64,000 nt of DNA from an uncultured Methanosarcinales archaeon (GTDB taxonomy: Archaea > Nanobdellota > Nanobdellia > Woesearchaeales > JAGWAF01): contig CAYHWL010000001.1 in assembly GCA_964359785.1 (NCBI GenBank), positions 2,422-66,421 of the forward strand, given 5' to 3'. The notes under the pieces are model-generated. The model ran no database searches, had not been told where the DNA came from, and saw only the letters and a list, made by a program, of their open reading frames with translations. The position numbers were made by a program, and so were the translations under genes. Below, piece after piece: positions 15,256 to 34,271 of this stretch (the first letter of the stretch is position 1; each line of letters starts with the position of its first letter).

Positions 15256-15791
15256 TTGCCAACTTGTGTGGTCTTTCCAAGTCCCTCCAGACGCAAAGAG
15301 ACTGTTGATGACTCTATATTGTCTATGCAGAAGAATCCTTGGTTCTCAAGGACTGTTAGTGGCCCCACACGGATCTGTGTCTCGCTTGCGGGTTTGAGGA
15401 ATATGTTCTGGTCGCTTCCGCTTCGTACGGCGTCAGCCATTAGCGCGCTTTGGTTTTCAGCCAGGAAATCTACGCGGGTCTTGTATGTGTTAGGGCCTGT
15501 CTGTATCTGGGAGTCTGTGTAGCTACTTCCCTGGAACATCCTGTTATCGACAAAGCATATGGTCTCAAAACCAGGGCATAGCGTCAAGTCCATCCTGCGC
15601 ACGGTCCCGACAGATGCGGTCACTCGTTCTATCTGATTTTTGAGCGTGTTTTGCGTTTCTATCACGCAGACTTGACTTTTCATCTCTCCAAGAGTGGAGA
15701 TAGACCGATATCCATAGAGGAGGATCATGGCGAATATTATCGCGCCTAATACAAACAGTAACGCTTGTCCTAGTATCTGGGCACGTCTCAT
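15237..15791 (-). CDS. pilin-like protein (MRRAQILGQALLFVLGAIIFAMILLYG)
   Basis: Class III-like N-terminus. Its start overlaps the giant gene's stop (15788..15791). Confidence 0.6.
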   Translation of the reverse strand: MRRAQILGQALLFVLGAIIFAMILLYGYRSISTLGEMKSQVCVIETQNTLKNQIERVTASVGTVRRMDLTLCPGFETICFVDNRMFQGSSYTDSQIQTGPNTYKTRVDFLAENQSALMADAVRSGSDQNIFLKPASETQIRVGPLTVLENQGFFCIDNIESSTVSLRLEGLGKTTQVGKWQEEQ

Positions 15792-21757: not shown

Positions 21758-21761
21758 GGAT

Positions 21762-23156
21762 TTAACCTAATTTCTTGACGATTGCTGGGAATATAAGCGT
21801 TTGGCTGTCCGCCAATTCATCGTCGGTGACATTGACGCTAAAGACAAATCTCATAGATGGTTCCCTCGCCACAAACTCCACCATCAAGAAGGGGATGGGT
21901 TTTTCAGGGTTTGCAGGGTCCCTTGGTTCTGGGGCGACGCTTGGTTCAGGCAGCTCCATGGTGTACTCGAATCGCAATGGATTATCATCAGGATCTATCG
22001 CGTTTAAGGTGATGCATAATTGTTGGGGAGAGCATAATGGAGCATTCTTGATGCAAAACACTTGATTGACGATCCCGATTGTAGGCTCTATCTTGTTCCC
22101 CTCCTTATCTTCTGTTGCACAGACCACGAAATTATTGACTGCGTCACGGCGTGCGGAATCATTTAGGAGGAACAGCGCAGGCCTCCTGTTTTTTATCGCG
22201 AATCGGAATTCAAATGGACGCTCCAATATGTTGCTATATGGGTCTCTGACGATGTAGAGATAATCCAATCGGTTCACATTTGGCTTTCTGTCATAGGTCA
22301 GGTTTTCTACTTTGATCTCGCTGATATTTATCGAGAGATTGCTCACGTCTTGATCTAACAACTGGCTGGTGAATTCTATTATTTGCCCAAGCCTGACTGG
22401 ATAGTCTACCTCAAAATTTTCCAGTTTTGACTCGGCTTGTGTGACTGTATTGGATAGGTTGATTGGCCAATTGAGTTGGACCGTTACGTCGGCTAGATTG
22501 ACTGTGACTGTTGTGTTTGGGCCTGATTTGCGTATTCTTATATTGCCCTTGGATAGGTCCTGCCAGCGTACGCAAGTCTGCATCTTGTTTGTGATATATA
22601 CTTCCAACTGCTCCTGGATGCTTCTGGAGAATGTCTTGGTGAGATGGGTGAGTCTATTGTATCCTGCGAATGCCAATGTGTTGTATCCCGGGCTGCATGG
22701 TTGTGTTATGCATTGGGTCTCCGGAAAGCCCGCCCAGGGATATTCCGGAGGGCTGGATTTATAGAATCCAAATAGATCCCCCATAGGTCCTACGACTGCA
22801 TATGGCACGTCCTTGTCTTCATAGCGCAGGTATTCTTGCCCAAAACATGGAGGATAATCAGATACTCCAAAGCACACCTGATTAAATGATTTGGTGGGGC
22901 CGCCCTGTGTGTCGTATATCACCCCTCCTTGGTCCCCTAGTAATGCCAGTCCCTTGCGCGCCGCAAGATCCAGGCAATATTTCACTTCCTGTTTGATAGG
23001 AAGGATCTCTTCCGCTCCAAGCTGCGTCTTTGCTATGGTTTGGCTTGTGGTTTGCGCGATGAAGTTATTATAGATATAATAGAATGAGCTAAACAGAAAG
23101 ATCAGTACTATGCATATGATTAGGAATACTGTGACTTGTCCGGTCTTCTTTCGCAT
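21762..23156 (-). CDS. hypothetical secreted protein with a class III-like signal (MRKKTGQVTVFLIICIVLIFLF); start at internal ATG
   Basis: The internal Met (residue 36 of the tracked ORF) gives a KKTG|Q plus hydrophobic-helix N-terminus. The stop lies 4 nt upstream of the giant gene's start. Confidence 0.55.
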   Translation of the reverse strand: MRKKTGQVTVFLIICIVLIFLFSSFYYIYNNFIAQTTSQTIAKTQLGAEEILPIKQEVKYCLDLAARKGLALLGDQGGVIYDTQGGPTKSFNQVCFGVSDYPPCFGQEYLRYEDKDVPYAVVGPMGDLFGFYKSSPPEYPWAGFPETQCITQPCSPGYNTLAFAGYNRLTHLTKTFSRSIQEQLEVYITNKMQTCVRWQDLSKGNIRIRKSGPNTTVTVNLADVTVQLNWPINLSNTVTQAESKLENFEVDYPVRLGQIIEFTSQLLDQDVSNLSINISEIKVENLTYDRKPNVNRLDYLYIVRDPYSNILERPFEFRFAIKNRRPALFLLNDSARRDAVNNFVVCATEDKEGNKIEPTIGIVNQVFCIKNAPLCSPQQLCITLNAIDPDDNPLRFEYTMELPEPSVAPEPRDPANPEKPIPFLMVEFVAREPSMRFVFSVNVTDDELADSQTLIFPAIVKKLG

Positions 23157-23273
23157 TTTGTCCTCTATTTTCCCGAGCCCTTCCTGACGGCAAACATTTC
23201 GGCAAGGGTGATTCCCTCGTATGTCACTATATATAGTTTTGGATAGGCAAGATTGCATCAAAGAATAAGTGTC

Positions 23274-24083
23274 TTACTCGGTTCGGTTCATCTGTCCTAT
23301 CGCTGATTTACATATGCGTCTTGCTTCGTCATTTGGGATCATGTCACAGTAATTCACGTCTGTGAGATTTATCGCTAATTGTTGCGATGATTGCAGCTTG
23401 CATTCTTCTACCATGAATTCATATGGCAGTGACTGGCATGTCAAGGAATTCTTCGTGATTATAGCTGTTTGGATGGCTGATTTCACTTTCTCTCTCAATT
23501 GTTCCTGCGCTCCCGGATCCACTCTTGCAAGTATATCCAGCACGCAACGCGATTGCAGTGCAGGATCGTTCTTTGGACAGGCCGTTGGATCGACGTTCAT
23601 TCTTGCTTTGATCAATTGCATGAATGTCTCGCAATTTTGTCTGTTGTCTCCAAGGTTCGCACACAATGATGGATTGTCTGTCAAGGCGCCAAGCCCTATG
23701 GTGGCTTTCAATTTGGTGGATTCTTCATTCACGGCCTTAGCCAAGGCCTCTTTGAGTTTTGTCATGCATTCTTCTCTGGCATTTTTCTCGTCCATTCCAA
23801 GGCATTGGAATGGATCAAGGGCAATTATCGCTTGTTCTGTGATTATTTGCGCAAGGGAAGGGGCGGCTTGTCTTTGATATAGATAATATGTGGATCCAGC
23901 CAGCACAAGACATACCAATAAGAGCGCGTAAGCCGCGATCCTGTATCCTCTGACGTGGTCTGCGAGGAGGCCTACGATATCCGAGTACCCTTCATTGTGG
24001 AGTTCTCTTATGATCTCATCGCTAGAAAGTTTCTGTTTTCTTTTCGTGGAGATGAATTTCTCGATTGGAACTTGTTTGACCAT
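23274..24083 (-). CDS. single-pass membrane protein (about 50-aa cytoplasmic N-terminus, TM helix, Cys-rich extracellular domain)
   Basis: TM segment YALLLVCLVLAGSTYYLY. The C-terminal region has about 10 Cys residues. Confidence 0.55.
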   Translation of the reverse strand: MVKQVPIEKFISTKRKQKLSSDEIIRELHNEGYSDIVGLLADHVRGYRIAAYALLLVCLVLAGSTYYLYQRQAAPSLAQIITEQAIIALDPFQCLGMDEKNAREECMTKLKEALAKAVNEESTKLKATIGLGALTDNPSLCANLGDNRQNCETFMQLIKARMNVDPTACPKNDPALQSRCVLDILARVDPGAQEQLREKVKSAIQTAIITKNSLTCQSLPYEFMVEECKLQSSQQLAINLTDVNYCDMIPNDEARRICKSAIGQMNRTE

Positions 24084-24137
24084 AGGATTGGGATGTATAT
24101 CGGCTTATTATATGTTTTGTGCATTACAGTGAGGTGT

Positions 24138-26225
24138 CTACCTTAGTTTCGCGCTAAAGTCTCTCCATACATCCTTGAGATTGCCCCATGAGCTGGTTGT
24201 GAATGCTGCGAATTTCAGGGTATTCCCGCTTTGTGTGCAGTCCCTTGGCAGGTCGGTCCTTAGGTTGTTGTTTAGAAGATCGCACCCGGTCATCCCAGTT
24301 GGGTCGGTGATATTGATATTGACATATCGCGCCGCAGTGTAATCTACTTTGCTTCCATTGAGGTATCTTTGTCTTTGGATGAAGCTAAAGAGGTCTTTTG
24401 GAGTCTTTCGGTTATAATATATCGCGTCAAATACTGTGGTGCTGGACAACGTGCTTTGCATATCCGCAAGAGTGGGTTTTCCAGCATAATTGACAAGATC
24501 CGCGAATCGGGTGGCGAGTGCTGGCCATCTTCTGGTTTCCACCTCATTTGGCCCAATTGAGCTTATCGCGCCATAAGGCGTGTAGATCAAAGTGTTAAGT
24601 CCCGGATTATAGGATATCCCGTTTCCGCATGGATGGAACAGACTGTCGCCTATGGCAAGCGCGTTATCACATGAATGTATACTCTTCCCAAGTGCGGGCA
24701 GGAAGCTTTGCATGCTGTCATTCACTGCCACATTCAGGCTGGTGCCAAAAGCCGCTCCCTTGGTGCTTGTGAGTACACAGAACTGGTTCACACAAGAAGT
24801 CTTTGTCCCTCTGATGACGCAAGGTTTCTCTAAGTAGCTCCTTACAGGCCCTGCGTTTGGAAGCGCTTCATAGTCGATGAAATTGAGGGTCTCGTTGAAA
24901 TAATCGCAGAATATGGAGTAATTGTTCACCGAGTTTATCTCTGCGTAATCCACTAGGTACATGGCAAGAAGTTTGGTCCTGCTTGACCAGTTTCCGGATG
25001 CGCAATAATACTGTTGGATTGAGGTCTTGTCATTTATGCAGGCTGGTTGTTTGGTTGTGTAAAAAGAGTCCGGATCATCCGCTAAGGATATGTTGCCTGC
25101 GGGATTGACAAGACACTGTGTCATATTGGGGCAGTATCCCTTATTTTGGTCATTCCAAGTGTACTTTACAGGCTGGTACACCCAGTCTCCAGCTATACAT
25201 CGATAGCCTCCGCTTGTGGTCGGTCTTGTTTCAAAGGTTTGGTCGGCTATGCAGGAGATGCCATTCCAGCAGCCTGTCTCTGGGCAGCATTCGACATTGT
25301 TTGCTGAATTGTTGAGTGGGTATAGAAGTTGGTTTCTCACTTCTGGGATCACATATTTTGGTTTGAGTTTGTTTTGTTTTGTTGTGAGTGTCCATGTCCC
25401 GTTGAATGAGCAATAGTAATTGACATTGACTGCGCGCGTGGCATTGTACGCCAAAGTGCAACGGTTTGTATCGTTGATGAGGGGTTTGCCATTATGTGAA
25501 TCCTTCATGGTCAATAGATTTGGATTTGTCTCGTTTAGTTGGCATCCGAAGAATTGGCCAAGTATGGTGAGCACGCTTCCGTTTGTGTTGTTCACGGTAT
25601 ATCCATTCGCCGCGAATCTGCTTTTGAAACATGCTCCGCTTTCATCGTCTTTATAGTCAGGTGGATTTGGGTCTTGGTATGATTCATTTGGCCAATCGTA
25701 TTTCTCGCCGCAACATTTCTTGCCTGTCCATCGTAGATTTGCGAGTTTGCAGGTTAACGGATCTTTGTTGTCAAGGTCCTGTGCCCATTCAGCGTCTTTT
25801 GCGCAGTAGAAAGTAGGGCTTGACGGATTTTCGCTGATGCTGATGGTGATTGGGCTTGCTGCTGATATTGAGCCAGGCGGTCCAGTATTGATATACATCT
25901 CTATGGCTTTTATTGCCACAAAACCAGTCCTCCCGATTTTTTGGCTATCCAATTCACAGCTCATAGTTGAGGCATCAGAATCATAATCCAAGATGATAGT
26001 ATGGTCCGAATTAGGCGCCCATGAGGAGACATCAAATACAGTTTCTACCCTGCCTGCCCCTTTGACATTCTTGCAGATGATTTTCGTGTCAACCTTTTCG
26101 ATCGATAGGTAGGCATCAGGCGCTTCCTTGGCATGGAAGAGCACCCTATTGAGGTTCTCCTTGCCTTCCCATGTGTTATGGATTGAGAGCACGATGTGTC
26201 CTCTTGTTGAATTGTAATTTGCCAA
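24138..26225 (-). CDS. C-terminal 695-aa part of a secreted Cys/N-glycosylation-sequon-rich protein (in frame with the 26343..27056 ORF; separated by a single TGA)
   Basis: The tracked ORF starts at a TTG codon and has no signal peptide of its own. It carries many NxS/T sequons and Cys residues typical of an extracellular protein. It is in the same frame as the upstream ORF. Confidence 0.55.
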   Translation of the reverse strand: MANYNSTRGHIVLSIHNTWEGKENLNRVLFHAKEAPDAYLSIEKVDTKIICKNVKGAGRVETVFDVSSWAPNSDHTIILDYDSDASTMSCELDSQKIGRTGFVAIKAIEMYINTGPPGSISAASPITISISENPSSPTFYCAKDAEWAQDLDNKDPLTCKLANLRWTGKKCCGEKYDWPNESYQDPNPPDYKDDESGACFKSRFAANGYTVNNTNGSVLTILGQFFGCQLNETNPNLLTMKDSHNGKPLINDTNRCTLAYNATRAVNVNYYCSFNGTWTLTTKQNKLKPKYVIPEVRNQLLYPLNNSANNVECCPETGCWNGISCIADQTFETRPTTSGGYRCIAGDWVYQPVKYTWNDQNKGYCPNMTQCLVNPAGNISLADDPDSFYTTKQPACINDKTSIQQYYCASGNWSSRTKLLAMYLVDYAEINSVNNYSIFCDYFNETLNFIDYEALPNAGPVRSYLEKPCVIRGTKTSCVNQFCVLTSTKGAAFGTSLNVAVNDSMQSFLPALGKSIHSCDNALAIGDSLFHPCGNGISYNPGLNTLIYTPYGAISSIGPNEVETRRWPALATRFADLVNYAGKPTLADMQSTLSSTTVFDAIYYNRKTPKDLFSFIQRQRYLNGSKVDYTAARYVNINITDPTGMTGCDLLNNNLRTDLPRDCTQSGNTLKFAAFTTSSWGNLKDVWRDFSAKLR

Positions 26226-26342
26226 GGTTCCAGTACGTACCGATTCGGTGGCAAGAAGGCTTGCCGCATAGAGTTCTCCGGCGGTATGGCTTTCTCCGAT
26301 CTGTGCGACCCTTCCATCTTGGGTGTCATATGCTGGATCGTC

Positions 26343-27056
26343 TCAGGAGCATTCCAGGATGTTCCTATAGCTGTCATTGTTGCTGGGGGTGTCTTCCGCG
26401 CAAAGATATGAATGGGAGGGTTTGTCGCCCACCCCTGTCTTGGTCATGTTCATCAAAGTGAACGTCTTATATGTATTCACGCTGCCTAACCCTATGCCGC
26501 ACAGATAAAAATCATTTCCATCGCTAAGGATTTGCGCTTGGGCGCATTGGAGATTGAATATGTCTGCTTTGTTCGAGATTAATTTTGCCCATTTCCAGGT
26601 TTCGGGGCCTATCGAGGGATTCACGCATGCTTCGCTGCCTATGCGCATCCCGCAGTTGTCCGTCGGATGAGCGCCGCAGCATTTGGAATTAGCAGTGGAC
26701 CAGTTCACGGTCTTGTTCGCGAAGCATACGGGAAGTGTGAGGTAATTGTTTCCTCTGCAATATGTGGAGGTATCCCACGAGACGGCATGCGTGTTTAGTT
26801 CCGCGTAATTCGCCTGATCATTTCCGCCGACGGTGAATTTGAGTTTGTACTGTCCCTCTTGAGAGCATACTTTGGCCACATCTTGTATCGGAAGCTTACA
26901 TTCTCCATTTCCTTCGCATGTGTTTGTCTCCATCGCCACAGAGGCATCCGGTGCTAGAAGCTGCAGTTTGCTTGATTGCGCGGACACAGCTATCGAGAAG
27001 ATTATACAGACAGCTAAATAGAACACGATAACCAGGTTTCTCCTGTCGATATGCAT
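26343..27056 (-). CDS. N-terminal 237-aa part (with signal peptide) of the same secreted protein; ends at an in-frame TGA
   Basis: N-terminus MHIDRRNLVIVFYLAVCIIFSIAVSAQS (signal peptide). A TATA box (ctttatatata) lies about 25 nt upstream of the ATG at 27054..27056. The stop TGA at 26343..26345 is followed in frame by DDPAYDTQDG…. Confidence 0.6.
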   Translation of the reverse strand: MHIDRRNLVIVFYLAVCIIFSIAVSAQSSKLQLLAPDASVAMETNTCEGNGECKLPIQDVAKVCSQEGQYKLKFTVGGNDQANYAELNTHAVSWDTSTYCRGNNYLTLPVCFANKTVNWSTANSKCCGAHPTDNCGMRIGSEACVNPSIGPETWKWAKLISNKADIFNLQCAQAQILSDGNDFYLCGIGLGSVNTYKTFTLMNMTKTGVGDKPSHSYLCAEDTPSNNDSYRNILECS

Positions 27057-27281: not shown

Positions 27282-27328
27282 GATTGTCTTCGCAATCCTT
27301 ATATCCACAAGATGATTTCGTGGAAAGT

Positions 27329-28006
27329 ATGAGATTCGCGCTCCGTTTTGATGCAGTCCAGTCTGTCAATAAGGACTTTGCGGCATTGATCGATCTATTG
27401 ATCGAGAAGAAGATTGCGGCCACTTACGCTGTGATCCCTTCTTTGATCGATCACCAATCCACTAGTTTACTCTCTGAAAAGGCGCGGAGCCATCCCAGAT
27501 TGGTGAGTATCGTCCCTTATGGTTGGTCTGGTTCAAATTATGGATCGGGCGCAAGGCCCGGCGAATTCGGGGAGTTCCGTTCAAGGGCGCAGCAATGGGA
27601 GGATATCAAGAGGTCTATCGAAAGGATGGACCGGCTTTTCATGCATCGCTGGTCTAGGGTCTTTGTTCTGCCATTCAACAATTATGATCATATCACCCAG
27701 GAGATTCTCAAAAGCAATATGTTTATGGCCTTTAGCGCAAGGTGCTCCCCTTATCAAAAACATCTCTTGCCCGATGTGGGAGCGAGCATCGTTCTTGGTA
27801 AGCCGACGCTGGCCAAGTCTATCGTGTCTGAATGCCAGTTCTTGCTTAATGCCAGGGAAGGCATCGTGATCGCGATTAGGCCAGAGGCGCTAGCGGGGGT
27901 TTATGTCGAGGAGATAAAGAAGGCCGCGCTGGTCTTGGTGGCCAGGAATGCCCGGCCTGTGATCTTATCAGAGCTAGCAGGTGTTTCTCTAGAAAAGGTT
28001 ATATAA
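27329..28006 (+). CDS. hypothetical protein, possibly polysaccharide-deacetylase-like (DUF2334-like)
   Basis: Start moved to ATG 27329 (MRFALRFDAVQSV…). A TATA box (ccttatatcc) lies about 25 nt upstream. The RFDAV motif weakly resembles NodB/DUF2334 motif 1. Function is low confidence. Confidence 0.45.
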   Translation: MRFALRFDAVQSVNKDFAALIDLLIEKKIAATYAVIPSLIDHQSTSLLSEKARSHPRLVSIVPYGWSGSNYGSGARPGEFGEFRSRAQQWEDIKRSIERMDRLFMHRWSRVFVLPFNNYDHITQEILKSNMFMAFSARCSPYQKHLLPDVGASIVLGKPTLAKSIVSECQFLLNAREGIVIAIRPEALAGVYVEEIKKAALVLVARNARPVILSELAGVSLEKVI

Positions 28007-28028
28007 TCAGCTGCGCATTCTATATACT

Positions 28029-28349
28029 ATGGAAGGTGTAGAGGTCTTCTCCGATGGATTATGCCACACTATTGAGATAGACTCTTCTTTTTTCGATAAG
28101 GAGGTGGTGATGACCACGGCGTATTCTTTTATGGATCGTTTCTATGTGAAGATTAGCGGGGATCCATTGGGGAGCATCTTGGTGTCGTTGCTGCCCAAAG
28201 GCCAGGATATTGACTCGGGATCCATTGAAGGGGAGTTTGGCAATGCCCTTCTTGCGTATGCACAGCATCAAATGATGGCAAAAGGTTCAAAACAGGTGAG
28301 AGAGATGATTGTCTACAGCGCGCTGATGGCAGGTGAACGGCATGGTTGA
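28029..28349 (+). CDS. hypothetical 106-aa protein (candidate precursor or accessory protein for the downstream radical SAM enzyme)
   Basis: Small ORF overlapping the next ORF by 17 nt. No recognisable domain. Confidence 0.35.
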   Translation: MEGVEVFSDGLCHTIEIDSSFFDKEVVMTTAYSFMDRFYVKISGDPLGSILVSLLPKGQDIDSGSIEGEFGNALLAYAQHQMMAKGSKQVREMIVYSALMAGERHG

Positions 28350-28518
28350 TTTTTTACTGCTCAACTCTGATTTCTATGATCTTGGGAAGATCGAGGATTT
28401 CATACATGCAAAAGATGAAGGGCCAAGATTTTACAGGCAGGATGGCATCTTGCGGGTTGAAGGTGAAAGGCAAGAGCTCTTGATGATCGCAAATGCCGCG
28501 TTGCATCTTTCGAGGTGA
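28333..28518 (+). CDS. hypothetical 61-aa protein (candidate precursor peptide or chaperone)
   Basis: Small ORF overlapping both neighbours, consistent with translational coupling. Confidence 0.3.
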   Translation: MNGMVDFLLLNSDFYDLGKIEDFIHAKDEGPRFYRQDGILRVEGERQELLMIANAALHLSR

Positions 28519-29893
28519 GATTATGCGCAGCAACATCTTAAGATGGCGCAAGGTAGGGGGAAGGATCCTTCTTGTTTCCGACTCTGGCGCATGGATATTT
28601 CTTGATCCTCTAGAGTTTGAGGGGTTCATGGCAGATGAGATCTCACATGGACTGCATTCCAAGCTAAAGGCCAACCGTATCATTCTTGATCAAGATAATG
28701 AGTCAGCTGAGATTGCGGCGTACAAAGCGAAAAAAGATTTCGTGCGGCAAGGCACTTCTTTGCATATCATGATCCCCACTCTAAGATGCAATCAAAGATG
28801 CGTCTATTGCCACGCATCTTCAAGACCTATGGATGCTAAAGGAGTGGACATGGATAAAGACACGGCAAATAAGGCGATCGAGTTCATATTGCAGTCTCCG
28901 GCGGGTTCTATCGAGATTGAATTTCAGGGTGGGGAGCCTCTTGTGGATTTTGGGATGGTCAAGCACATCTGCAAGACCGCTAAGGTTGCGGCGTTGGAGA
29001 CTGGTAAAATGATTAGGTTCTCGATGACCAGCAACCTTCTGTTGATGGACCAGGAGAAGCTGGATTTCCTGATTGATCATGATGTGGCCGTCTGCACTAG
29101 TCTTGACGGCCCAAGAGATGTGCATGATAAGAGCAGAGGCCATTATGACGAGCTTATTTCTAAGATCCATTTTGTCAATTCAGTCTATCAACAAAAAGGG
29201 TTGCCAAATAGGCTTGGGGCTCTTTTCACACTCACAAGGACCGCGTTGTCATGCCCTAAAGACATCATCGATGAATATATCCGGCTTGGTATGGATCAGA
29301 TCCATATCAGATGGCTCAACCCTCTTGGATCTGCGCAAGACGCGTTTGACGAAGTTGGCTGCACACCGCAAGAATATATAGAGTTCTGGAAGGCTTCCAT
29401 GGAGTATATTTTGGAGAAGAACCGGACTGGCACTCGGTTCATCGAGCGGCAGGCGCGTATCATGCTCCACAAGATACTAAGATCCACCGATCCCAATTAC
29501 CTTGAGATGCGCTCGCCTTGCGGCGCGGTCACAGGCCAGCTTGCCTACGGACCGGATGGGAAGATATATACTTGTGATGAAGGCAGGATGATCGGTGAAG
29601 GTCTCTTTTGTGTTGGCGATGCGAAGATGGATTCTTACAAGGAGGTCCTTGAGAGCCCCACTTCACTCTCTATGATCAATGCATCTATAACTGATTCCCT
29701 TTTCTGTGACACTTGCGCTTATAAGCCATGGTGTGGGGTATGTCCTGTCATGAATTATGCCGAACAAGGCTCCTTGATTGGTGACATTGTAAATACTCCA
29801 AGGCACAAGATCTTCCTCGCTCAATTCGATTGGATATTTATGCGCCTCCAGATAGAAGAGGATGCGCAGATATTAAAGTCATGGGTCAAATAG
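28493..29893 (+). CDS. radical SAM / SPASM-domain enzyme (peptide- or protein-modifying maturase family)
   Basis: CNQRCVYCHA (Cx3Cx2C) is preceded by an N-terminal extension of about 95 aa. The C-terminus has a 7-Cys SPASM-like motif (…SPCG…YTCDE…LFCVG…FCDTCAYKPWCGVCP). Confidence 0.85.
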   Translation: MPRCIFRGEIMRSNILRWRKVGGRILLVSDSGAWIFLDPLEFEGFMADEISHGLHSKLKANRIILDQDNESAEIAAYKAKKDFVRQGTSLHIMIPTLRCNQRCVYCHASSRPMDAKGVDMDKDTANKAIEFILQSPAGSIEIEFQGGEPLVDFGMVKHICKTAKVAALETGKMIRFSMTSNLLLMDQEKLDFLIDHDVAVCTSLDGPRDVHDKSRGHYDELISKIHFVNSVYQQKGLPNRLGALFTLTRTALSCPKDIIDEYIRLGMDQIHIRWLNPLGSAQDAFDEVGCTPQEYIEFWKASMEYILEKNRTGTRFIERQARIMLHKILRSTDPNYLEMRSPCGAVTGQLAYGPDGKIYTCDEGRMIGEGLFCVGDAKMDSYKEVLESPTSLSMINASITDSLFCDTCAYKPWCGVCPVMNYAEQGSLIGDIVNTPRHKIFLAQFDWIFMRLQIEEDAQILKSWVK

Positions 29894-29964
29894 CCGCACT
29901 TCGGGGCCAGGATCGAGATGTTAAAGTAGGTTTTTTATATTCGAATATCGCTCTTTCTCTCATG

Positions 29965-31182
29965 TTAAAGCAGGAGCTTAGGTCATTCTTGTTGGAAGAA
30001 TCAGGCGCAGTTGACAAAGATGTGATCCTAAGGGCTGGTTCTATGATCATCGCAAGCGCCATCGCCTCTGGCATCGCACACGCCCAGACAGCAGGGACTA
30101 CTGAAGCGGCGGCAAACACACATACTGTCGTCCTTCCTGATGGTAGCCTCACTACTGTGCCTTGGTACTTGAGCATTGAGAACAATCAATGGGTGTGCCG
30201 TCCTGAAGGCAAGAATGTCACTTGTCCTTCAGAGGCGAATATTACTGCGGGTAATGCGGAGCTTGCCAGGCAGACATCATTAGCGGCAGCTGTGGCCGCG
30301 ACTGGTTGTCCTTCTTGCCAGACGGGTTGTGGTCAGCCCGCTTGTCATGCCAATTGCGCGGATATCCACACTGATGCTGTGAACTATATTGGTCAGCATA
30401 CCCATCGGATTGAGCCAAGCGGTCCTTGTCCTCCGCCGCTGCCTGCGGGAGGTGACGACGGTGGATGGATCATGGACGCTATTGGCACGGCATATGCGCC
30501 AGGGATTCATAATAATGGCGAAGTGTTCGGAGCTTTGATTATTGAAGCCAGCAAGAAAGATAAATCTTTTTTGGTTGATTGCTATCATGCGAGTGGTGTG
30601 ATCTTCAGGATCAAAGGCATCAAACATATCCAAAAAGGGGGTATGGCAGATAGATTGCGCAGATGGATCGCGCCAAAGCATGATCTTGCCAAGGACGACT
30701 GGTGGGCGAAACCCTTGCTGACCGCGAGCGCACGCTTCGGATGGATCCACGGCAGAACAATGCTCACTGCCACGGCAAAAGATGGTTTGCTTGCTCCTAT
30801 CACGATGAGATATCTAGAGAATATGGATGTTTCGATGGAATGGCCTGACCATGTCAAACGATTGAACGCGCTTGTTGGCGGATTGGAAAGAGGTGACGAC
30901 AAAGCTGGTCTCGCGATGGTATTGGGACACAAAAATTATCTCAAGCTAAAAAAAGACGCTATAAATTATAGGGTATCCACTGATACGACCAATCATATCG
31001 GAAGCCGCGATGGATCTATCTTATTGCCAAATCAGGTCACGGTCAGATGGCAAGAAAAATTCTGGGATCTTGTCCTTCGAAGCTGTGGATTGAGTTTATT
31101 GACAAAAATGGTCTACAACATCCAGTTTAAGCGCGCATGCGGCCATTGTCTGGACCCAAGAAGCACCCCAAACATTGCTTGA
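29965..31182 (+). CDS. secreted Cys-rich hypothetical protein
   Basis: Signal-peptide-like N-terminus …MIIASAIASGIAHAQTAG. Cys cluster CPSCQTGCGQPACHANC. The start is uncertain: 29830, 29965 or 30046. Confidence 0.5.
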   Translation, partial: LKQELRSFLLEESGAVDKDVILRAGSMIIASAIASGIAHAQTAGTTEAAANTHTVVLPDGSLTTVPWYLSIENNQWVCRPEGKNVTCPSEANITAGNAELARQTSLAAAVAATGCPSCQTGCGQPACHANCADIHTDAVNYIGQHTHRIEPSGPCPPPLPAGGDDGGWIMDAIGTAYAPGIHNNGEVFGALIIEASKKDKSFLVDCYHASGVIFRIKGIKHIQKGGMADRLRRWIAPKHDLAKDDWWAKPLLTASARFGWIHGRTMLTATAKDGLLAPITMRYLENMDVSMEWPDHVKRLNALVGGLERGDDKAGLAMVLGHKNYLKLKKDAINYRVSTDTTNHIGSRDGSILLPNQVTVRWQEKFWDLVLRSCGLSLLTKMVYNIQFKRACGHCLDPRSTPNIA

Positions 31183-31220: not shown

Positions 31221-31934
31221 CTATCCTAGCAAGGGATAAATTACGACAAGGATCGCCCCCAGAAATAGGAATGGCGCAAAGGCGATTTCTTGGTCCTTCT
31301 TTGATTGCATCACGAGTCTAGTCATCATCACTATCACGCTGCTGGAGACTGCGACGATCGCGATTTGTTTGTCGAAGCCTTTAAGATATAATCCCAAGAC
31401 TAGCATGGCAAAATATAGGCCCATCTGATGATTAAAAGGTAATCTTCCGATGATATAGGCTATTGCTAAGACTAGGGCTACTGATGGGAAAAATGCTAGT
31501 CCCAATGAGTTCACGAGAAATGAGTTTGCGATGACAGATAATGCCACAAGCAGTATGTCTCTTCTTCCCAGATGCGCAAGATTGACTCTTCGGTGATTGA
31601 ATATGATGATGGACAGATAACCGGAAAGGGCTGTCACGATACAAAAGAGTATCACGTTTTCCAGATTGAGCCAGGTCATCCCGATAATAGCGTAGGTTAA
31701 CGCAAGTTTCCCATCGCCTGCCCCTATCCACCTGCATCTATACATGAGAAACATGAGCAATATGATGCCCACAAGCCAGCCCCATTGCGCAAAGGATATC
31801 ATTCCGAAGATAAGAGTATTGATTATCCCGATTATCGCAAAGAATGCCACAAGGCTATTTGGTATCTTGTGGGTCTTGATATCTTGATAACTAGAGCACA
31901 ATCCCAATCCTATCAATAGGAGGAGATTTATCAT
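31221..31934 (-). CDS. archaeal prepilin / preflagellin peptidase (A24 family, PibD/FlaK-like)
   Basis: Polytopic membrane protein with the two catalytic Asp motifs: SYQDIKTHKIPN near the N-terminus and WIGAGDGKLALTY. Confidence 0.8.
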   Translation of the reverse strand: MINLLLLIGLGLCSSYQDIKTHKIPNSLVAFFAIIGIINTLIFGMISFAQWGWLVGIILLMFLMYRCRWIGAGDGKLALTYAIIGMTWLNLENVILFCIVTALSGYLSIIIFNHRRVNLAHLGRRDILLVALSVIANSFLVNSLGLAFFPSVALVLAIAYIIGRLPFNHQMGLYFAMLVLGLYLKGFDKQIAIVAVSSSVIVMMTRLVMQSKKDQEIAFAPFLFLGAILVVIYPLLG

Positions 31935-32524
31935 TTCTCCAGTATCCTGCCCACATGCAGGATGGATCTCTTTGCCTGTGATGTATTCATGCCAAATGCG
32001 AGATAAGTCCTTTGAAGGTCATGTGGGCTTCTCAGGTGATATGGGTTTGTGGCCATGCTCACAATCGCTGTATCGACGCCATATTTTTCGCATAATCCAA
32101 AATTCTGTCTCATCCGTCCAAGTATGACTCCCCTTCTGGATACCTCAAGCCCAAGTATGGTCTCAAACGGGAATGCCAGTCCTATTTTCTTCTTGACCAT
32201 GATATTACAATAGATATGGTTTAGTCCGCTTTGTCTTTGGTGCATGGAATCATGTTTTTGTTTCTTTTCTATGTCATAGAGCAGTTGGAACCCTCCTGCT
32301 TCGATTGTGTCCCTATCATCTCCTTTGCTCTCTTTGATGATCAGGTTCGCGTGGGAATCGCTTGGGGACGCGTGATAGATGGGCATTTTCGATTTTACTC
32401 CACCCAAACGGAGAGCATCCGGCTTATTAGGATAGAAGAAACATAGACCATCCCATCCCAGAGTTTGCGCCATCTGGATGTATTCCTCTTCGTTTTTTTG
32501 GGGTATGACAATGTCGATATGCAT
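31931..32524 (-). CDS. rnp3: RNase P protein subunit Rpp30 (Rnp3)
   Basis: Start moved to MHIDIVIP…. The C-terminal region GLAFPFETILG…RRGVILGRMRQNFGLCEKYGVDTAIVSMATNPYHLRSPHDLQ…FGMNTSQAKRSI aligns with human RPP30 (GLAFELVYS…VIISSAAERPLEIRGPYDVANLGLLFGLSESDAKAAV). Confidence 0.75.
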   Translation of the reverse strand: MHIDIVIPQKNEEEYIQMAQTLGWDGLCFFYPNKPDALRLGGVKSKMPIYHASPSDSHANLIIKESKGDDRDTIEAGGFQLLYDIEKKQKHDSMHQRQSGLNHIYCNIMVKKKIGLAFPFETILGLEVSRRGVILGRMRQNFGLCEKYGVDTAIVSMATNPYHLRSPHDLQRTYLAFGMNTSQAKRSILHVGRILEK

Positions 32525-32547
32525 GCTTCGGGTCCAAGAAGCATGAT

Positions 32548-33471
32548 TTATATTACTTTGCAGCCACACCCCACACCACACATGCGTCCTGCGCCATTTT
32601 GCGCCTTACTAAGGATCATGCAGGTCTTGCACAGTTTGTTGCTTGCGGGTTCTCCGCATCCAAAACAGGCGCCTATTTTCTCCAGACTGGCGTTGATCTC
32701 ACGCAATCGCGGCAATACTCTCAAAAACTCCTCTACCATCTTCAGTTTTGTCCCTGGTTTTGTGTTTTCGATTGAATCAAGGTATGACCGTATATGTCTT
32801 CTCATGGCATCATCGCCGCACGGACACAAGTTATATGCGACTGGGAATCCTTTGATTCTTGCGTATTTCTCTATCTCAAGATTTGATAGGTAATACAATG
32901 GTTTCACTCTTGGGATGAAACGCGAGTCTTCTATCGCTCCTACCATAGGCCCCATCCTGGCGCTTAATTGAAGATTGTTGCGGAGGAAATTCATCACTAT
33001 TGATTGGCATTCATCGTCAAGATTGTGTCCTGTGACTACCACATCTGCCCCCATACTTCGGGTGTATTTGTTCAGTAGGTATCTGCGCGGCACCCCGCAC
33101 ACTGTGCAGCTCTTGATATTTAGTCCAGCTTCCTTCATTGCTTCGTGCAGGTATTGCACTGAATACCCGAATTCATCATGGAAGTCTATCACCTTTAGAG
33201 GTATGTTGTTCTCCTTGCAATAGCTTTTCACGTTGAGTAAGTTCTCCTTTGTGTAGCATCCGATATGAGTGTCCACAGTAAGGGCGCAAAAGTCATATCC
33301 TAGCCTTTTGAGGAGGTGCATCACGGTTGTGCTATCTTTGCCTCCACTCGCGGCGACTACAAGATTCGTCCTTCCGGCAAGCAGTTTATGTGCTGCTATA
33401 GTCTGTTTTACCCTCTTCTCAAAAGCGTTTGAGAATTCCTTGCCATTTTTTGGGAGCCTTCCAAATTTCAT
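32548..33471 (-). CDS. TtuA/Ncs6-type PP-loop ATPase (tRNA 2-thiolation family)
   Basis: PP-loop SGGKDS, with Cys motifs CTVCGV, GH and CPCG, plus a C-terminal zinc ribbon (CFGCG…CKTC). Confidence 0.8.
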   Translation of the reverse strand: MKFGRLPKNGKEFSNAFEKRVKQTIAAHKLLAGRTNLVVAASGGKDSTTVMHLLKRLGYDFCALTVDTHIGCYTKENLLNVKSYCKENNIPLKVIDFHDEFGYSVQYLHEAMKEAGLNIKSCTVCGVPRRYLLNKYTRSMGADVVVTGHNLDDECQSIVMNFLRNNLQLSARMGPMVGAIEDSRFIPRVKPLYYLSNLEIEKYARIKGFPVAYNLCPCGDDAMRRHIRSYLDSIENTKPGTKLKMVEEFLRVLPRLREINASLEKIGACFGCGEPASNKLCKTCMILSKAQNGAGRMCGVGCGCKVI

Positions 33472-34271
33472 AAATACTCACTCTTTAAGGTCTCTATCTC
33501 ATTTTCTAAAAATCCCACAAGCGGATTTAATACTACAAGCCCGGGGAATGTTTCTCGCTGGGTGCAGACGCATGCCTGCAGATCCAGTCGGATTATCTCT
33601 TCTTTGTTCACCTCATTTATGCACAATGGAAGACTTCCATGATATCTTGCCAAAGGAGATAGGTCTAGGCCTGCAGGGTTTAACACCATCAAGTTGCATC
33701 CTCTTTTCATCATCATTATGCCAGCTAGAATGTCGATTTGCGTGTCTAGCACAAGCAATGCCTTCCCCTGGCTTCCGACCGGATATCCGCCATGGCCTTT
33801 GAGTTTTGAGTCAAATACATATGCCATCTTATTCACTAATTCTACTCCTATCTCTAGATCATACGCTGACAAATCGACTTTTGCGCCGCTTTTCTCCACG
33901 ACATATGCCCCAAGTTCAATGTCTACATCCCTGCTTCGCAATGTGATGGCCTTGTCTATCCTCTTTGCGCTTATCCTGAATTTTGTGTTTGTGTTCATCA
34001 GCTGTATTATCGGATCAGCTGCTTTTTTGATGTCAGTGATTGTGGCAGGGCATATCTGCGCGTATGAATATGTGCATATCCCAAAGATGTCTCCAAACCA
34101 TGCAGGCCTCTCTTCCGTCTCAATTATGAGCCTCCCATGGGTCTTTCTTATTTTTGGTTTGGGACGGCCATATTTTACGAAAAACATCTCTATGGACTTC
34201 GCTAATTGCCGTATGAATTGGTCTTGGTTTTGTCCCTTGAGCGCAATCTCATCATATCGTACCAGTATCAT
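33468..34271 (-). CDS. ThiI-like THUMP-domain protein with a degenerate PP-loop (truncated ThiI)
   Basis: Aligns with E. coli ThiI residues 1..~230: MILVRY…FRISAKR…GYPVGSQGKALLVLDTQIDILAGIMMMKRGCNLMVLN versus [32 protein letters not shown]. The SGGFDS PP-loop is replaced by LDTQID, and the protein ends about 70 aa later. Confidence 0.8.
   Translation of the reverse strand: MILVRYDEIALKGQNQDQFIRQLAKSIEMFFVKYGRPKPKIRKTHGRLIIETEERPAWFGDIFGICTYSYAQICPATITDIKKAADPIIQLMNTNTKFRISAKRIDKAITLRSRDVDIELGAYVVEKSGAKVDLSAYDLEIGVELVNKMAYVFDSKLKGHGGYPVGSQGKALLVLDTQIDILAGIMMMKRGCNLMVLNPAGLDLSPLARYHGSLPLCINEVNKEEIIRLDLQACVCTQRETFPGLVVLNPLVGFLENEIETLKSEYL

What the first reader, a model, noticed from the sequence alone, without database searches (positions are those of the whole stretch)
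27329..31182. Radical SAM/SPASM maturase-like gene with overlapping small upstream ORFs and a secreted Cys-rich neighbour: candidate archaeal RiPP-like locus
The 466-aa protein (28493..29893) has the CNQRCVYCHA radical-SAM cluster motif after an N-terminal extension of about 95 aa, which could be an RRE-like peptide-binding domain. Its C-terminus has a 7-Cys SPASM-type twin-cluster motif, the architecture of sactisynthase/PqqE/anSME-type peptide- or protein-modifying enzymes. Two small ORFs (106 and 61 aa) overlap each other and the enzyme's start by 17-26 nt, consistent with coupled translation of substrate or chaperone genes. A secreted Cys-rich protein follows. RiPP-type radical SAM systems are scarcely characterised in archaea.
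Basis: partly seen in the sequence, partly recalled or inferred. Interest (0 to 1): 0.6.

Follow-up and report, generated by a model that had tools for sequence, protein, structure and literature searches.

The report
Archaeal one-enzyme His-Xaa-Ser maturation cassette
This is a DPANN-archaeal version of the His-Xaa-Ser (Hxs) protein-maturation system, recently shown in E. coli to block phage DNA entry; here it has one radical SAM enzyme instead of two, a neighbouring prepilin-type peptidase, and a target protein that has lost the His-Xaa-Ser repeats.

Summary
The 466-aa ORF is HxsB (TIGR03978, 416.7 bits against a cutoff of 370; more likely start 28523, 456 aa). The 106-aa ORF is HxsD. The 61-aa ORF sits where 60-85-aa "HxsD-like" genes sit in relatives, but it is degenerate. 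The "secreted Cys-rich neighbour" (more likely start 29962) carries the HxsA3-type leader, so it is the likely substrate; the small ORFs are not.

There is no HxsC in the 64 kb and no His-Xaa-Ser repeats. The core is CPSCxTGCGQPACHANCA…GQHTHRIE…CPPP, followed by a 240-aa domain found in only about five proteins among 1.84 billion representatives.

Across 80 genome loci and 80 metagenome loci, archaeal Hxs cassettes are A24-peptidase–HxsD–HxsD-like–HxsB–HxsA. An A24 gene lies within 4 kb in 18 of 24 archaeal loci and 2 of 55 bacterial loci. In the reverse test, 35 of 41 A24-like loci carry HxsB. The window has an A24 gene at 31221-31934.

Verdict: a new variant of a known, barely characterised kind. 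The chemistry and biological role remain unknown. Interest is moderate.

The parts
28000..28008 (+). TATA-like box (TTATATAA) about 21 nt upstream of the hxsD ATG; a putative promoter for hxsD, the hxsD-like ORF and hxsB
   Evidence: Read directly from the sequence. This is an inference only; no transcript data are available.
28029..28349 (+). hxsD (106 aa), a small accessory protein
   Evidence: TIGR03976 E=7e-12, 45.6 bits, just under the cutoff of 50. It scores 87.2 bits (E=2.8e-26) against an HMM of 69 HxsD proteins from other loci, built without the window sequence. It occupies the same position in L001, L003 and L004, where Pfam PF27806 HxsD is on record.
28342..28518 (+). Small ORF (58 aa from ATG 28342; 61 aa from GTG 28333): a degenerate HxsD-like paralogue
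   Evidence: It fills the hxsD-hxsB gap exactly as the 60-85-aa NF038315 'HxsD-like' genes do in relatives (L003 57.6 bits, L004 51.5 bits; alignment). Only the N-terminal LNxxFYDxxxIE motif is kept (hhalign E=7e-4 over 22 columns; BLASTP against L001 E=0.005). A leave-one-out HMM gives no hit, and the conserved EFCNYVLGLMKN motif is absent.
28523..29893 (+). hxsB (456 aa; the longest ORF starts at 28493): radical SAM/SPASM maturase with an N-terminal RRE-like domain
   Evidence: TIGR03978 416.7 bits against a cutoff of 370, matched end to end. More than 4,600 homologues, the best from Woese-, Pace- and Nanoarchaeota and named HxsB by NCBI and JGI. AF2 pLDDT 89.8; the best PDB match is CteB 5wgg.
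28523..28756 (+). RRE-like N-terminal domain of HxsB (about residues 1-78)
   Evidence: The model shows strands 6-11, 14-19 and 24-27, then helices 29-36, 42-50 and 60-70. The alignment to CteB is about 85 columns longer than the alignment to anSME. That CteB has an RRE and anSME lacks one is from my own knowledge.
28787..28810 (+). CNQRCVYC radical SAM cluster motif (residues 89-96)
   Evidence: C89, C93 and C96 are invariant in 30 of 30 aligned sequences.
29519..29806 (+). SPASM auxiliary-cluster region: C333, C351, C395, C398, C404, C407 and H428
   Evidence: The six Cys are invariant in 30 of 30 sequences. Position 428 is Cys in 28 of 30 and His in the window and its nearest relative P0002 (the HxsB of L001). 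His recurs at this position in other lineages that have ordinary HxS substrates.
29931..29941 (+). TATA-like box (TTTTTATATT) about 21 nt upstream of ATG 29962; a putative separate promoter for the hxsA-like gene
   Evidence: Read directly from the sequence. Inference only.
29962..31182 (+). hxsA-like gene (406 aa): the probable substrate/effector. It comprises leader, 73-aa spacer, Cys/His core, Gly-rich linker and a C-terminal domain.
   Evidence: Leader and core match the 102-aa gene that follows hxsB in L001 (E=2e-9 and 1e-11). A leader HMM built without the window or L001 scores 20.2 bits. NF038309 HxsA3 gives E=0.011-0.025, below its cutoff. A full-length homologue, P0122, shares 34% identity. 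Only 5 proteins among 1.84e9 representatives match the profile.
29962..30087 (+). Leader/signal, residues 1-42: the FLLEESGAVDK recognition-type motif, Gly26, the hydrophobic segment SMIIASAIASGIA, and an AHA|Q site
   Evidence: Alignment with HxsA3/A4-type leaders of consensus LPKIKKKISSFLxxEEGKISKxxLLKxG plus a hydrophobic segment. Gly at this position occurs in 47 of 51 A24-linked leaders and 16 of 34 unlinked leaders. The hydrophobicity maximum is at residues 21-40.
30307..30438 (+). Conserved Cys/His core CPSCQTGCGQPACHANCADIHTDAVNYIGQHTHRIEPSGPCPPP (residues 116-159): the likely site of modification
   Evidence: Nearly identical in P0122 (which is 34% identical overall), and also present in P0123 and L001. 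P0124 has GQHSHHASHAN at the position of GQHTHRIE, followed by the same C-terminal domain. This ties the core to the His-Xaa-Ser region of ordinary HxsA proteins.
30454..31179 (+). C-terminal domain of about 240 aa, function unknown
   Evidence: No Pfam or NCBIfam hit. Shared only with P0122, P0123 and P0124. The AF2 model is all-alpha but unreliable (pLDDT 54.6).
31221..31934 (-). Peptidase A24 (prepilin/preflagellin-type aspartyl peptidase, 237 aa), convergent with hxsA-like: a candidate leader peptidase
   Evidence: Pfam PF01478 37.4 bits against a cutoff of 26.5. Both catalytic-type motifs are present (SSYQD…, GAGDGKL). A 237-aa homologue (E=4e-12 over the full length) lies in one operon with hxsD, a small ORF and hxsB in L087. 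A24-like genes are adjacent in 18 of 24 archaeal Hxs loci. In the window its start overlaps, by 4 nt, the end of the upstream RNase P p30 gene, so it may also be a housekeeping enzyme.
27284..28006 (+). Deacetylase-like gene (240 aa; ATG at 27329). It lies inside the finding's coordinates but is not part of the conserved cassette.
   Evidence: Polysacc_deac_1 scores 21.2 bits, below its cutoff. No similar protein was found in the other Hxs loci held at that point (L001-L084).

Best explanation
The locus is a DPANN-archaeal, single-enzyme variant of the His-Xaa-Ser (Hxs) protein-maturation system. Its genes are hxsD (28029-28349), a degenerate hxsD-like ORF (28342-28518), hxsB (28523-29893), and a divergent hxsA-like substrate/effector gene (29962-31182). 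An A24 aspartyl peptidase gene (31221-31934) lies next to it.

Proposed mechanism:
1. SHOWN by homology: the hxsA-like protein is made with a 42-residue N-terminal leader of the HxsA3 type.
2. INFERRED from RiPP precedent and from the E. coli HxsC-HxsD complex: the leader's FLxxEEGxIxK-type motif is held by the RRE-like domain of HxsB, helped by HxsD and the HxsD-like protein.
3. The enzyme class is SHOWN; the chemistry is UNKNOWN: HxsB cleaves SAM at its CX3CX2C cluster, and the resulting radical modifies a residue in the conserved Cys/His core (CPSC…CHANC…GQHTHRIE). That core replaces the usual HxS repeats.
4. INFERRED: the hydrophobic segment takes the protein across the membrane. The leader is then removed either after Gly26 by the adjacent A24 peptidase or after AHA41 by signal peptidase I.
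5. SPECULATIVE: the mature protein, carrying the modified module and a 240-aa C-terminal domain, acts at the cell surface. By analogy with E. coli HXS it might act as an antiviral barrier.
For: - HxsB: TIGR03978 416.7 bits against a cutoff of 370, full length. HxsD: E=7e-12.
- The nearest homologues are DPANN proteins already named HxsB.
- The window is archaeal: it has an RNase P p30 gene and an archaeal-type PheRS.
- The conserved order HxsD, small ORF, HxsB, leader-bearing peptide appears in L001, L003 and L004 and across 24 archaeal loci.
- The window's downstream protein shares its leader and core with the gene after hxsB in L001, and it is hit by a leader HMM built without it.
- P0124 links GQHTHRIE to a true HxS stretch and sits beside an A24-HxsD-small ORF-HxsB operon.
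- RRE-like fold and CteB-like architecture.
- A24 association: 18 of 24 archaeal loci against 2 of 55 bacterial loci (Fisher p=8e-11). In the reverse test, 35 of 41 A24-like loci with at least 2.5 kb of sequence downstream carry HxsD and HxsB, and 28 are colinear with a gap under 300 nt.
- Gly before the hydrophobic segment: 47 of 51 A24-linked leaders against 16 of 34 unlinked leaders.
- Function of the bacterial system: PMC13128918.
Against: - There is no HxsC anywhere in the 64 kb. The only other radical SAM gene, 50594-51481, scores 28.9 bits on TIGR03977. In E. coli, HxsC is essential and is the partner of HxsD.
- There are no His-Xaa-Ser repeats. The single H-x-[ST] in the 406 aa lies outside the core.
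- The HxsD-like ORF is not detected by NF038315 or by a leave-one-out HMM.
- HxsD and the HxsA3 leader both score below NCBIfam's curated cutoffs.
- In L085 the full-length homologue of the substrate has no hxsB upstream; a DoxX gene is there instead.
- The window's A24 gene is the short canonical type and overlaps the upstream RNase P p30 gene by 4 nt, so its adjacency here could be housekeeping synteny.
- The loci compared are phylogenetically related, so the counts overstate independence.
- No modification has been observed.
Confidence: 0.75

Rival explanations
1. The cassette is the same, but the enzyme has been repurposed as a thioether (ranthipeptide or sactipeptide-like) cross-linker acting on the six Cys of the CPSC…CHANC…CPPP core, and not on His or Ser.
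For: After HxsB, the next-best HMM hits are PapB (132.7 bits) and the SCIFF maturase (105.7 bits). The best structural match is the sactipeptide thioether-bond enzyme CteB. The core is Cys-rich and gives a faint SCIFF hit at E=0.6. This lineage has lost the HxS repeats and shows a degenerate HxsD-like protein.
Against: Those hits are far below their cutoffs of 340 and 425, while the HxsB cutoff is passed. Most substrates of this enzyme family have no Cys at all. P0124 has the same C-terminal domain and an HxS-type stretch but lacks the CPSC motif. The Cys428-to-His change in SPASM is not specific to Cys-rich substrates.
Confidence: 0.2
2. The A24 peptidase is an unrelated housekeeping prepilin peptidase in the window. 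The leader is an ordinary Sec signal with a long n-region and is removed by signal peptidase I at AHA|Q.
For: A hydrophobic segment followed by small residues at -3 and -1 (AxA-like) appears in most archaeal HxsA leaders. The window's A24 overlaps the upstream RNase P p30 gene by 4 nt; that gene follows the PP-loop ATPase and THUMP genes on the same strand. It scores only 24 bits against the Hxs-linked A24 subfamily. Leader positions -2 and -3 do not fit the canonical [KR]-[GA] class III motif (the motif itself is from my own knowledge).
Against: A24 genes adjoin Hxs genes in three different arrangements: upstream in the same operon, downstream convergent, and in L087 a short 237-aa type within the operon. 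The A24-like subfamily is largely dedicated to Hxs, with 35 of 41 loci carrying it. Gly before the hydrophobic segment tracks the presence of A24.
Confidence: 0.35
3. The cassette is decaying. HxsC is lost, the HxsD-like ORF is degenerate, and the HxsA-like protein has lost its repeats and now works without modification.
For: The small ORF has lost the conserved C-terminal motif. There are no HxS repeats. In L085 the homologous protein stands without hxsD or hxsB upstream.
Against: HxsB keeps every invariant cluster ligand and 53% identity to its syntenic orthologue. HxsD is intact. The leader, which is useless without a maturase, and the core are the best-conserved parts of proteins that are only 34% identical overall. 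Single-enzyme cassettes without HxsC are the rule in DPANN loci, not an exception.
Confidence: 0.1
4. The enzyme is an anaerobic sulfatase-maturating enzyme (anSME), or a PqqE-type enzyme, with a target elsewhere.
For: It shares the radical SAM plus SPASM architecture. anSME is the second-best structural match.
Against: TIGR03942 scores 77.6 bits against a cutoff of 349.45, and PqqE is not among the best 25 families. The RRE-like domain aligns to CteB over about 85 more columns than to anSME. No protein scanned in the window gave a sulfatase hit; only 24 of the 47 ORFs of 180 aa or more were scanned.
Confidence: 0.02

Closest known systems
E. coli/Klebsiella HXS antiphage system, HxsD-HxsB-HxsC-HxsA (Li et al., Nat Commun 2026, PMC13128918; families defined by Haft & Basu 2011: TIGR03976-03979)
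   Same: It has HxsB (above the curated cutoff) and HxsD. hxsD lies upstream of hxsB and the substrate gene downstream. The substrate has an N-terminal export/processing region, a short modified module and a C-terminal domain.
   Different: - No HxsC, which is essential in E. coli and is the partner of HxsD.
- An extra HxsD-like ORF.
- An adjacent A24 peptidase.
- A different leader family (HxsA3-type, not TIGR03979).
- No HxS repeats and no peptidoglycan-binding domain.
- An archaeal host without peptidoglycan or a periplasm. The paper reports 99.7% of HXS systems in Pseudomonadota.
NCBIfam 'HxsA3/HxsA4 + HxsD-like' subtype (NF038309, NF038313, NF038315), as annotated in DPANN and CPR metagenome-assembled genomes
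   Same: The gene order HxsD, HxsD-like, HxsB, leader-bearing peptide is the same. The leader motif is the same, and HxsB is 43-53% identical.
   Different: The window's substrate is 406 aa, not 70-130 aa. Its HxS array is reduced to GQHTHRIE and preceded by a CPSC…CHANC motif, and a 240-aa C-terminal domain is added. The HxsD-like ORF falls below detection. I found no publication on this subtype or on its A24 linkage.
CteB / SCIFF and PapB ranthipeptide maturases (RRE + radical SAM + SPASM)
   Same: It has the same three-domain architecture. CteB is the best structural match, and these are the next-best HMM hits.
   Different: The scores are far below the family cutoffs. Most substrates of the HxsB family are Cys-free His/Ser repeats. 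The auxiliary proteins HxsD and HxsD-like have no counterpart in those systems.
Archaeal class III (type IV pilin-like) signal peptides processed by FlaK/PibD/EppA (peptidase A24)
   Same: An A24 (plus Arc_PepC) peptidase is encoded beside a protein with a charged N-region, an invariant Gly and then a hydrophobic segment.
   Different: The N-region is about 26-35 aa, much longer than in pilins. Lys sits at -3 and not at -2. The hydrophobic segment is short and is followed by an AxA-like signal peptidase I site. No pilus assembly genes were seen in the loci.

Membership tests
His-Xaa-Ser (Hxs) system | HxsB radical SAM/SPASM maturase (TIGR03978, cutoff 370 bits) | tested here: met
   416.7 bits, E=1.2e-124, residues 16-465 matched to model positions 4-466 of 466.
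His-Xaa-Ser (Hxs) system | HxsD small protein (TIGR03976, cutoff 50 bits) adjacent to HxsB | tested here: inconclusive
   45.6 bits, E=7e-12, just below the curated cutoff. It scores 87.2 bits against a leave-one-out HMM of 69 locus-linked HxsD proteins and is in the conserved position. I accept it as HxsD.
His-Xaa-Ser (Hxs) system | Second radical SAM enzyme HxsC (TIGR03977) next to HxsB | tested here: not met
   No second CX3CX2C protein lies near the locus. The only other radical SAM gene in the 64 kb (50594-51481) scores 28.9 bits against a cutoff of 267.9. The rest of the genome was not available.
His-Xaa-Ser (Hxs) system | HxsA substrate with tandem His-Xaa-Ser repeats | tested here: not met
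   No ORF in the window has a credible HxS array. The downstream protein has one H-x-[ST] in 406 aa, outside the core. Homology to the HxS region survives only as GQHTHRIE, shown through P0124.
DPANN/CPR HxsA3-type subtype (NF038309 / NF038315) | HxsA3-type leader on the gene downstream of hxsB | tested here: inconclusive
   NF038309 gives 14.4-15.5 bits (E=0.011-0.025) against a cutoff of 65. My own leader HMM, built without the window, gives 20.2 bits. BLASTP of the leader against L001 gives 2e-9.
DPANN/CPR HxsA3-type subtype (NF038309 / NF038315) | HxsD-like (NF038315) ORF between hxsD and hxsB | tested here: inconclusive
   An ORF of the right size and position is present. There is no NF038315 hit and no leave-one-out HMM hit. 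Only the N-terminal motif matches (hhalign E=7e-4).
DPANN/CPR HxsA3-type subtype (NF038309 / NF038315) | Adjacent A24-family peptidase. This feature was proposed here; it is not part of any curated definition. | tested here: met
   PF01478 37.4 bits at 31221-31934.
RRE-dependent radical SAM/SPASM RiPP maturases (CteB-like class) | N-terminal RRE fold, CX3CX2C cluster and SPASM twin-cluster domain | tested here: met
   The AF2 model (pLDDT 89.8) shows three strands followed by three helices at residues 6-70. CteB 5wgg is the top hit at E=9e-23 over 471 columns. The Cys ligands are conserved, with His replacing the last Cys. Peptide binding was not tested.
Anaerobic sulfatase-maturating enzymes (anSME) | TIGR03942 (cutoff 349.45) or NF010321 (cutoff 441) | tested here: not met
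   77.6 and 55.4 bits.
SCIFF / ranthipeptide maturases | TIGR03974 (cutoff 425) or NF047865 PapB (cutoff 340) | tested here: not met
   105.7 and 132.7 bits.
HXS as an antiphage defence system | Protection against virus infection through a matured, exported HxsA | not testable with these tools
   Known only for E. coli (PMC13128918). PADLOC 2023 has no Hxs model, and only weak viperin-type radical SAM hits were seen.

The most novel reading that the evidence does not exclude
DPANN archaea (and, with other partners, CPR bacteria) run a minimal Hxs pathway in which HxsB alone installs the modification. A dedicated A24 aspartyl peptidase would then be the leader protease, the component still unidentified in the E. 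coli system. It would cut after the invariant Gly and leave a pilin-like hydrophobic N-terminus that anchors or polymerises the modified protein at the cell surface. In the window's small clade the His-Xaa-Ser array has been exchanged for a Cys/His module fused to a new 240-aa domain, which would make it a new class of radical-SAM-matured surface effector in episymbiotic archaea.
Probability: 0.2. Interest if true: 0.75.

Novelty: new variant of a known kind. Interest (0 to 1): 0.5.

Why it matters
- The Hxs system was assigned a function only in 2026: blocking phage DNA entry in E. coli. Its chemistry (+8 Da), the separate roles of HxsB and HxsC, and the protease that processes HxsA are all unsolved.
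- The archaeal cassettes found here are a natural minimal version with HxsB only, so they separate HxsB's contribution from HxsC's.
- They nominate a specific candidate leader peptidase, the A24 family.
- They show that the same leader can deliver very different cores: HxS arrays, Cys/His modules, and fused domains.
- They extend Hxs well beyond the Pseudomonadota, where the paper places 99.7% of systems, into DPANN archaea and CPR bacteria. These are small-genome organisms that depend on cell-surface interactions with hosts.
- The window's own substrate family is extremely rare, with about five proteins among 1.84 billion representatives.

Tried and rejected
1. I asked whether the loss of two SPASM-region Cys in the window lineage (C410 to Met, C428 to His) co-evolved with the Cys-rich substrate, as with the open auxiliary-cluster site that I recall for CteB. 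Rejected. Position 410 varies across the family, and His428 recurs in lineages with ordinary HxS substrates (L034, L057, L058, L066, L082, L083).

2. I asked whether the C-terminal half of the 450-aa ORF is a frameshift fusion with the hydantoinase-like gene that follows the precursor in L001. Rejected. There is no similarity, and the full-length homologues P0122 and P0123 have the same architecture.

3. Structure prediction of the C-terminal domain gave pLDDT 54.6 with only four sequences. The model is unusable, so I ran no fold search on it.

4. I looked for HxsC elsewhere in the window and found none.

5. The deacetylase-like gene upstream is not conserved with Hxs.

6. tRNA and Rfam scans of the window, run to identify the organism, found nothing.

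7. PADLOC has no Hxs model.

8. The sigma-70 promoter and terminator scan was uninformative for an archaeon.

9. Literature searches for the archaeal subtype, HxsA3, or a link between A24 and radical SAM found nothing relevant.

10. An exact-sequence look-up of the window's own protein P0121 found no record, so the source genome was not retrieved.

Full report
**1. Observation**

Pfam finds Radical_SAM (4e-14), Fer4_12 and a weak SPASM domain in the 466-aa protein.

The window is archaeal. It has an RNase P p30 subunit at 31931-32581(-) and archaeal-type PheRS subunits. No tRNA or Rfam family was found.

The coordinates need refining. The more likely hxsB start is ATG 28523, which has AGGTGA 5 nt upstream and matches the identical database protein P0001 of 456 aa. 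The small ORF most likely starts at ATG 28342, overlapping the hxsD stop as ATGgtTGA. The downstream gene starts at ATG 29962, as in its homologues. The genes remain tightly packed, but the 17-nt and 26-nt overlaps come from taking the longest ORFs.

TATA-like boxes lie about 21 nt upstream of ATG 28029 and ATG 29962. They suggest two transcription units. This is inference only.

**2. Identity**

NCBIfam places the enzyme in TIGR03978, "His-Xaa-Ser system radical SAM maturase HxsB", with 416.7 bits against a cutoff of 370, matched end to end. The next-best families are all far below their cutoffs: PapB 132.7, SCIFF maturase 105.7 and anSME 77.6.

The 106-aa protein is HxsD. TIGR03976 gives E=7e-12 and 45.6 bits against a cutoff of 50. 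A leave-one-out HMM of 69 HxsD proteins from other loci gives 87.2 bits.

The closest HxsB homologues (43-53% identity) come from Woese-, Pace- and Nanoarchaeota metagenome-assembled genomes and are already annotated as HxsB.

**3. What is known about Hxs**

Li et al. (Nat Commun 2026, PMC13128918) showed the following for E. coli HxsD-HxsB-HxsC-HxsA:
- It is an antiphage system that blocks DNA entry.
- HxsC binds HxsD.
- The protease and the chemistry are unknown.
- 99.7% of the systems they counted are in Pseudomonadota, in the order D-B-C-A.

I found no paper on an archaeal form.

**4. Anatomy of the archaeal form**

Three contexts of close homologues (L001, L003, L004) show the order HxsD, a 72-77-aa ORF, HxsB, and then a small protein. 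The small ORFs of L003 and L004 pass NF038315 "HxsD-like protein" (57.6 and 51.5 bits). The small downstream protein of L004 ends in HGNHSSHSQHGSHSSY and hits HxsA3 and HxsA4.

I fetched 80 genome loci with an HxsB alignment and annotated them with my own HMMs. Of the 24 archaeal loci:
- 23 have HxsD.
- 17 have the HxsD-like ORF.
- 18 have an A24-family peptidase-like gene within 4 kb, and in 15 of these it lies directly upstream on the same strand.
- Two of the six without an A24 gene end less than 1.1 kb upstream of HxsB, so they cannot be scored.

Only 2 of 55 bacterial or CPR loci have an A24 gene (Fisher p=8e-11). Those loci usually carry further radical SAM genes instead.

The Hxs-linked peptidases are 340-380 aa, combining A24 with the archaeal Arc_PepC domain. 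They fall mostly below Pfam thresholds and have no NCBIfam model.

For the reverse test I fetched 80 metagenome loci using only the peptidase alignment. Of 41 loci with at least 2.5 kb of sequence downstream, 35 carry HxsD and HxsB, 34 carry the HxsD-like ORF, 31 carry a leader-bearing ORF, and 28 are colinear with a gap under 300 nt. This peptidase subfamily is therefore largely dedicated to Hxs cassettes. The loci are related, so these counts are not independent events. However, the flanking genes differ between loci.

**5. The substrate**

Leader-bearing proteins downstream of HxsB share the consensus LPKIKKKISSFLxxEEGKISKxxLLKxG. This is followed by a hydrophobic segment of about 15 residues, an AxA-like site, and a variable spacer. 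Archaeal versions typically then end in (A/G)THxHHxSH…SSY.

The window's protein begins MLKQELRSFLLEESGAVDKDVILRAG-SMIIASAIASGIAHAQ. Several results tie it to this family:
- A leader HMM built without the window or L001 scores 20.2 bits.
- BLASTP of the leader against the 102-aa gene after hxsB in L001 gives 2e-9, and of the core 1e-11.
- NF038309 (HxsA3) gives only E=0.011-0.025.

The protein has no HxS repeats. After a 73-residue spacer comes CPSCQTGCGQPACHANCADIHTDAVNYIGQHTHRIEPSGPCPPP. This stretch is almost identical in P0122, which is only 34% identical overall, and is also present in P0123 and L001.

A profile search of 1.84 billion representatives finds only five proteins. One of them, P0124, has a canonical leader, then GVGQHSHHASHAN, then the same Gly-rich linker and C-terminal domain (GGGWLFDCLGT…). 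Its gene lies convergent with an operon of A24 (237 aa), HxsD, a 67-aa ORF and HxsB. P0124 therefore links the window's GQHTHRIE to the His-Xaa-Ser region. It also links the short, canonical A24 type found in the window (E=4e-12 over the full length) to Hxs.

The C-terminal domain of about 240 aa has no family hit. Its AF2 model is unreliable (pLDDT 54.6). Long HxsA forms with other C-terminal domains also occur in CPR bacteria (L045, L079), as in E. coli HxsA.

**6. The enzyme**

The AF2 model (pLDDT 89.8) shows an N-terminal domain of three strands followed by three helices (beta-beta-beta-alpha-alpha-alpha), then the radical SAM barrel and the SPASM domain. Foldseek ranks CteB (5wgg, sactipeptide thioether-bond enzyme) first, over 471 columns. 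anSME aligns over only about 385 columns. From my own knowledge, CteB has an N-terminal RRE and anSME does not.

C89, C93, C96, C333, C351, C395, C398, C404 and C407 are invariant in 30 of 30 sequences. The last SPASM Cys is His428 in the window and its nearest relative P0002, the HxsB of L001. The same substitution recurs in lineages with normal HxS substrates, so it is not tied to the Cys-rich core.

**7. The small ORF**

The small ORF fills the hxsD-hxsB gap exactly, as in relatives. It keeps only the N-terminal LNxxFYDxxxIE motif (hhalign E=7e-4; against L001 E=0.005). It lacks the EFCNYVLGLMKN motif. I treat it as a real but degenerate HxsD-like gene. A chance open frame of this length is not negligible; by my own estimate it is roughly 0.06 per frame.

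**8. Mechanism and its limits**

The best reading is a leader-guided, HxsB-catalysed radical modification of the Cys/His core, assisted by HxsD and the HxsD-like protein, followed by export and leader removal.

For the peptidase step, Gly immediately before the hydrophobic segment is found in 47 of 51 A24-linked leaders and in 16 of 34 unlinked ones. This fits A24-type cleavage. The AxA-like site fits signal peptidase I equally well.

In the window, the A24 gene's start overlaps the end of the upstream RNase P p30 gene by 4 nt. That gene in turn follows the PP-loop ATPase and THUMP genes on the same strand.

The following remain against full membership of the canonical system, or against function:
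- There is no HxsC in the 64 kb.
- HxS repeats are absent.
- The L085 homologue lacks an upstream hxsB.

The chemistry and the biological role are not established. An antiviral role, by analogy with E. coli, is speculation; a host-interaction or metal-binding role is my own conjecture and rests on nothing found here. The host also lacks peptidoglycan and a periplasm.

**9. Verdict**

The locus is a new variant of a known but barely characterised kind. PGAP already names these archaeal proteins HxsB, and NCBIfam already models HxsA3 and the HxsD-like protein.

I did not find the following described anywhere:
- the single-enzyme archaeal architecture;
- its strong, reciprocal link to A24 peptidases;
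- this window's repeat-less Cys/His substrate with a very rare C-terminal domain.

Interest is moderate (0.5).

Noticed in passing
window 15788-27056 (- strand): A run of large proteins: 1989, 499, 269, 695 and 237 aa. The four I scanned against Pfam (499, 269, 695 and 237 aa) gave no real hit. The 695-aa and 237-aa proteins are Cys-rich and look secreted. The syntenic 1943-aa protein in L001 has a TSP3_bac hit. This may be a surface-protein island next to the Hxs cassette.
   Followed up: partly
window 31221-34271 (- strand): The start of the A24 peptidase gene overlaps the end of the upstream RNase P p30 gene by 4 nt. Upstream of that, on the same strand, lie a PP-loop ATPase gene and a THUMP/ThiI-ferredoxin gene, each overlapping the next. 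This is an odd pairing of a membrane peptidase with tRNA-processing genes. The A24-p30 pairing is repeated in L001 and L085.
   Followed up: partly
L001 8829-10490 (-): The positional orthologue of the window's A24 gene is 553 aa. It has an A24-like N-terminus (E=2e-7 against the window's A24) fused to a region with squalene-cyclase-like repeat hits (PF13243, AstC-like_C).
   Followed up: no
L045 3311-4825 and L079 9679-11244 (CPR bacteria): HxsA proteins of 504 and 521 aa. Each has the standard leader, a very long HxS array and a shared C-terminal domain of about 330 aa. L022 10019-10669 has the same leader on a 216-aa Cys/Asp/Tyr-rich core. The leader therefore delivers very different cargoes.
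   Followed up: no
L005 9420-11108 and L006 5676-7361; L008 8421-9254: Some archaeal loci do carry HxsC-like radical SAM genes. A 562-aa protein has HxsC4 (NF038332) as its best hit, at 121 bits, far below the cutoff. A 277-aa protein scores 178.8 bits on TIGR03977. It lies in L008, one of the few archaeal loci without an A24 gene or an HxsD-like ORF.
   Followed up: partly
HxsB residue 428 (window 29804-29806): The last SPASM Cys is replaced by His in the window, L001, L087 and several unrelated lineages (L034, L057, L058, L066, L082, L083). This is a recurrent Cys-to-His swap of a presumed auxiliary-cluster ligand.
   Followed up: yes
window 27284-28006 (+): A weak polysaccharide-deacetylase/DUF2334-like gene ends 22 nt before hxsD. 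No similar protein was found in the other Hxs loci held at that point (L001-L084). L003 has a clear Polysacc_deac_1 gene about 4 kb downstream of its hxsB, which is probably coincidence.
   Followed up: partly
L085 1-3802: P0122, the full-length homologue of the window's HxsA-like protein, lies between a DoxX gene and an A24-like gene plus RNase P p30, with no hxsD or hxsB upstream. Either the maturase is encoded elsewhere in that genome or the protein works unmodified there.
   Followed up: no
window 50594-51481 (+): A second radical SAM protein of 295 aa. It is neither HxsC nor any named family (best hit TIGR04053, 49.7 bits against a cutoff of 395).
   Followed up: partly
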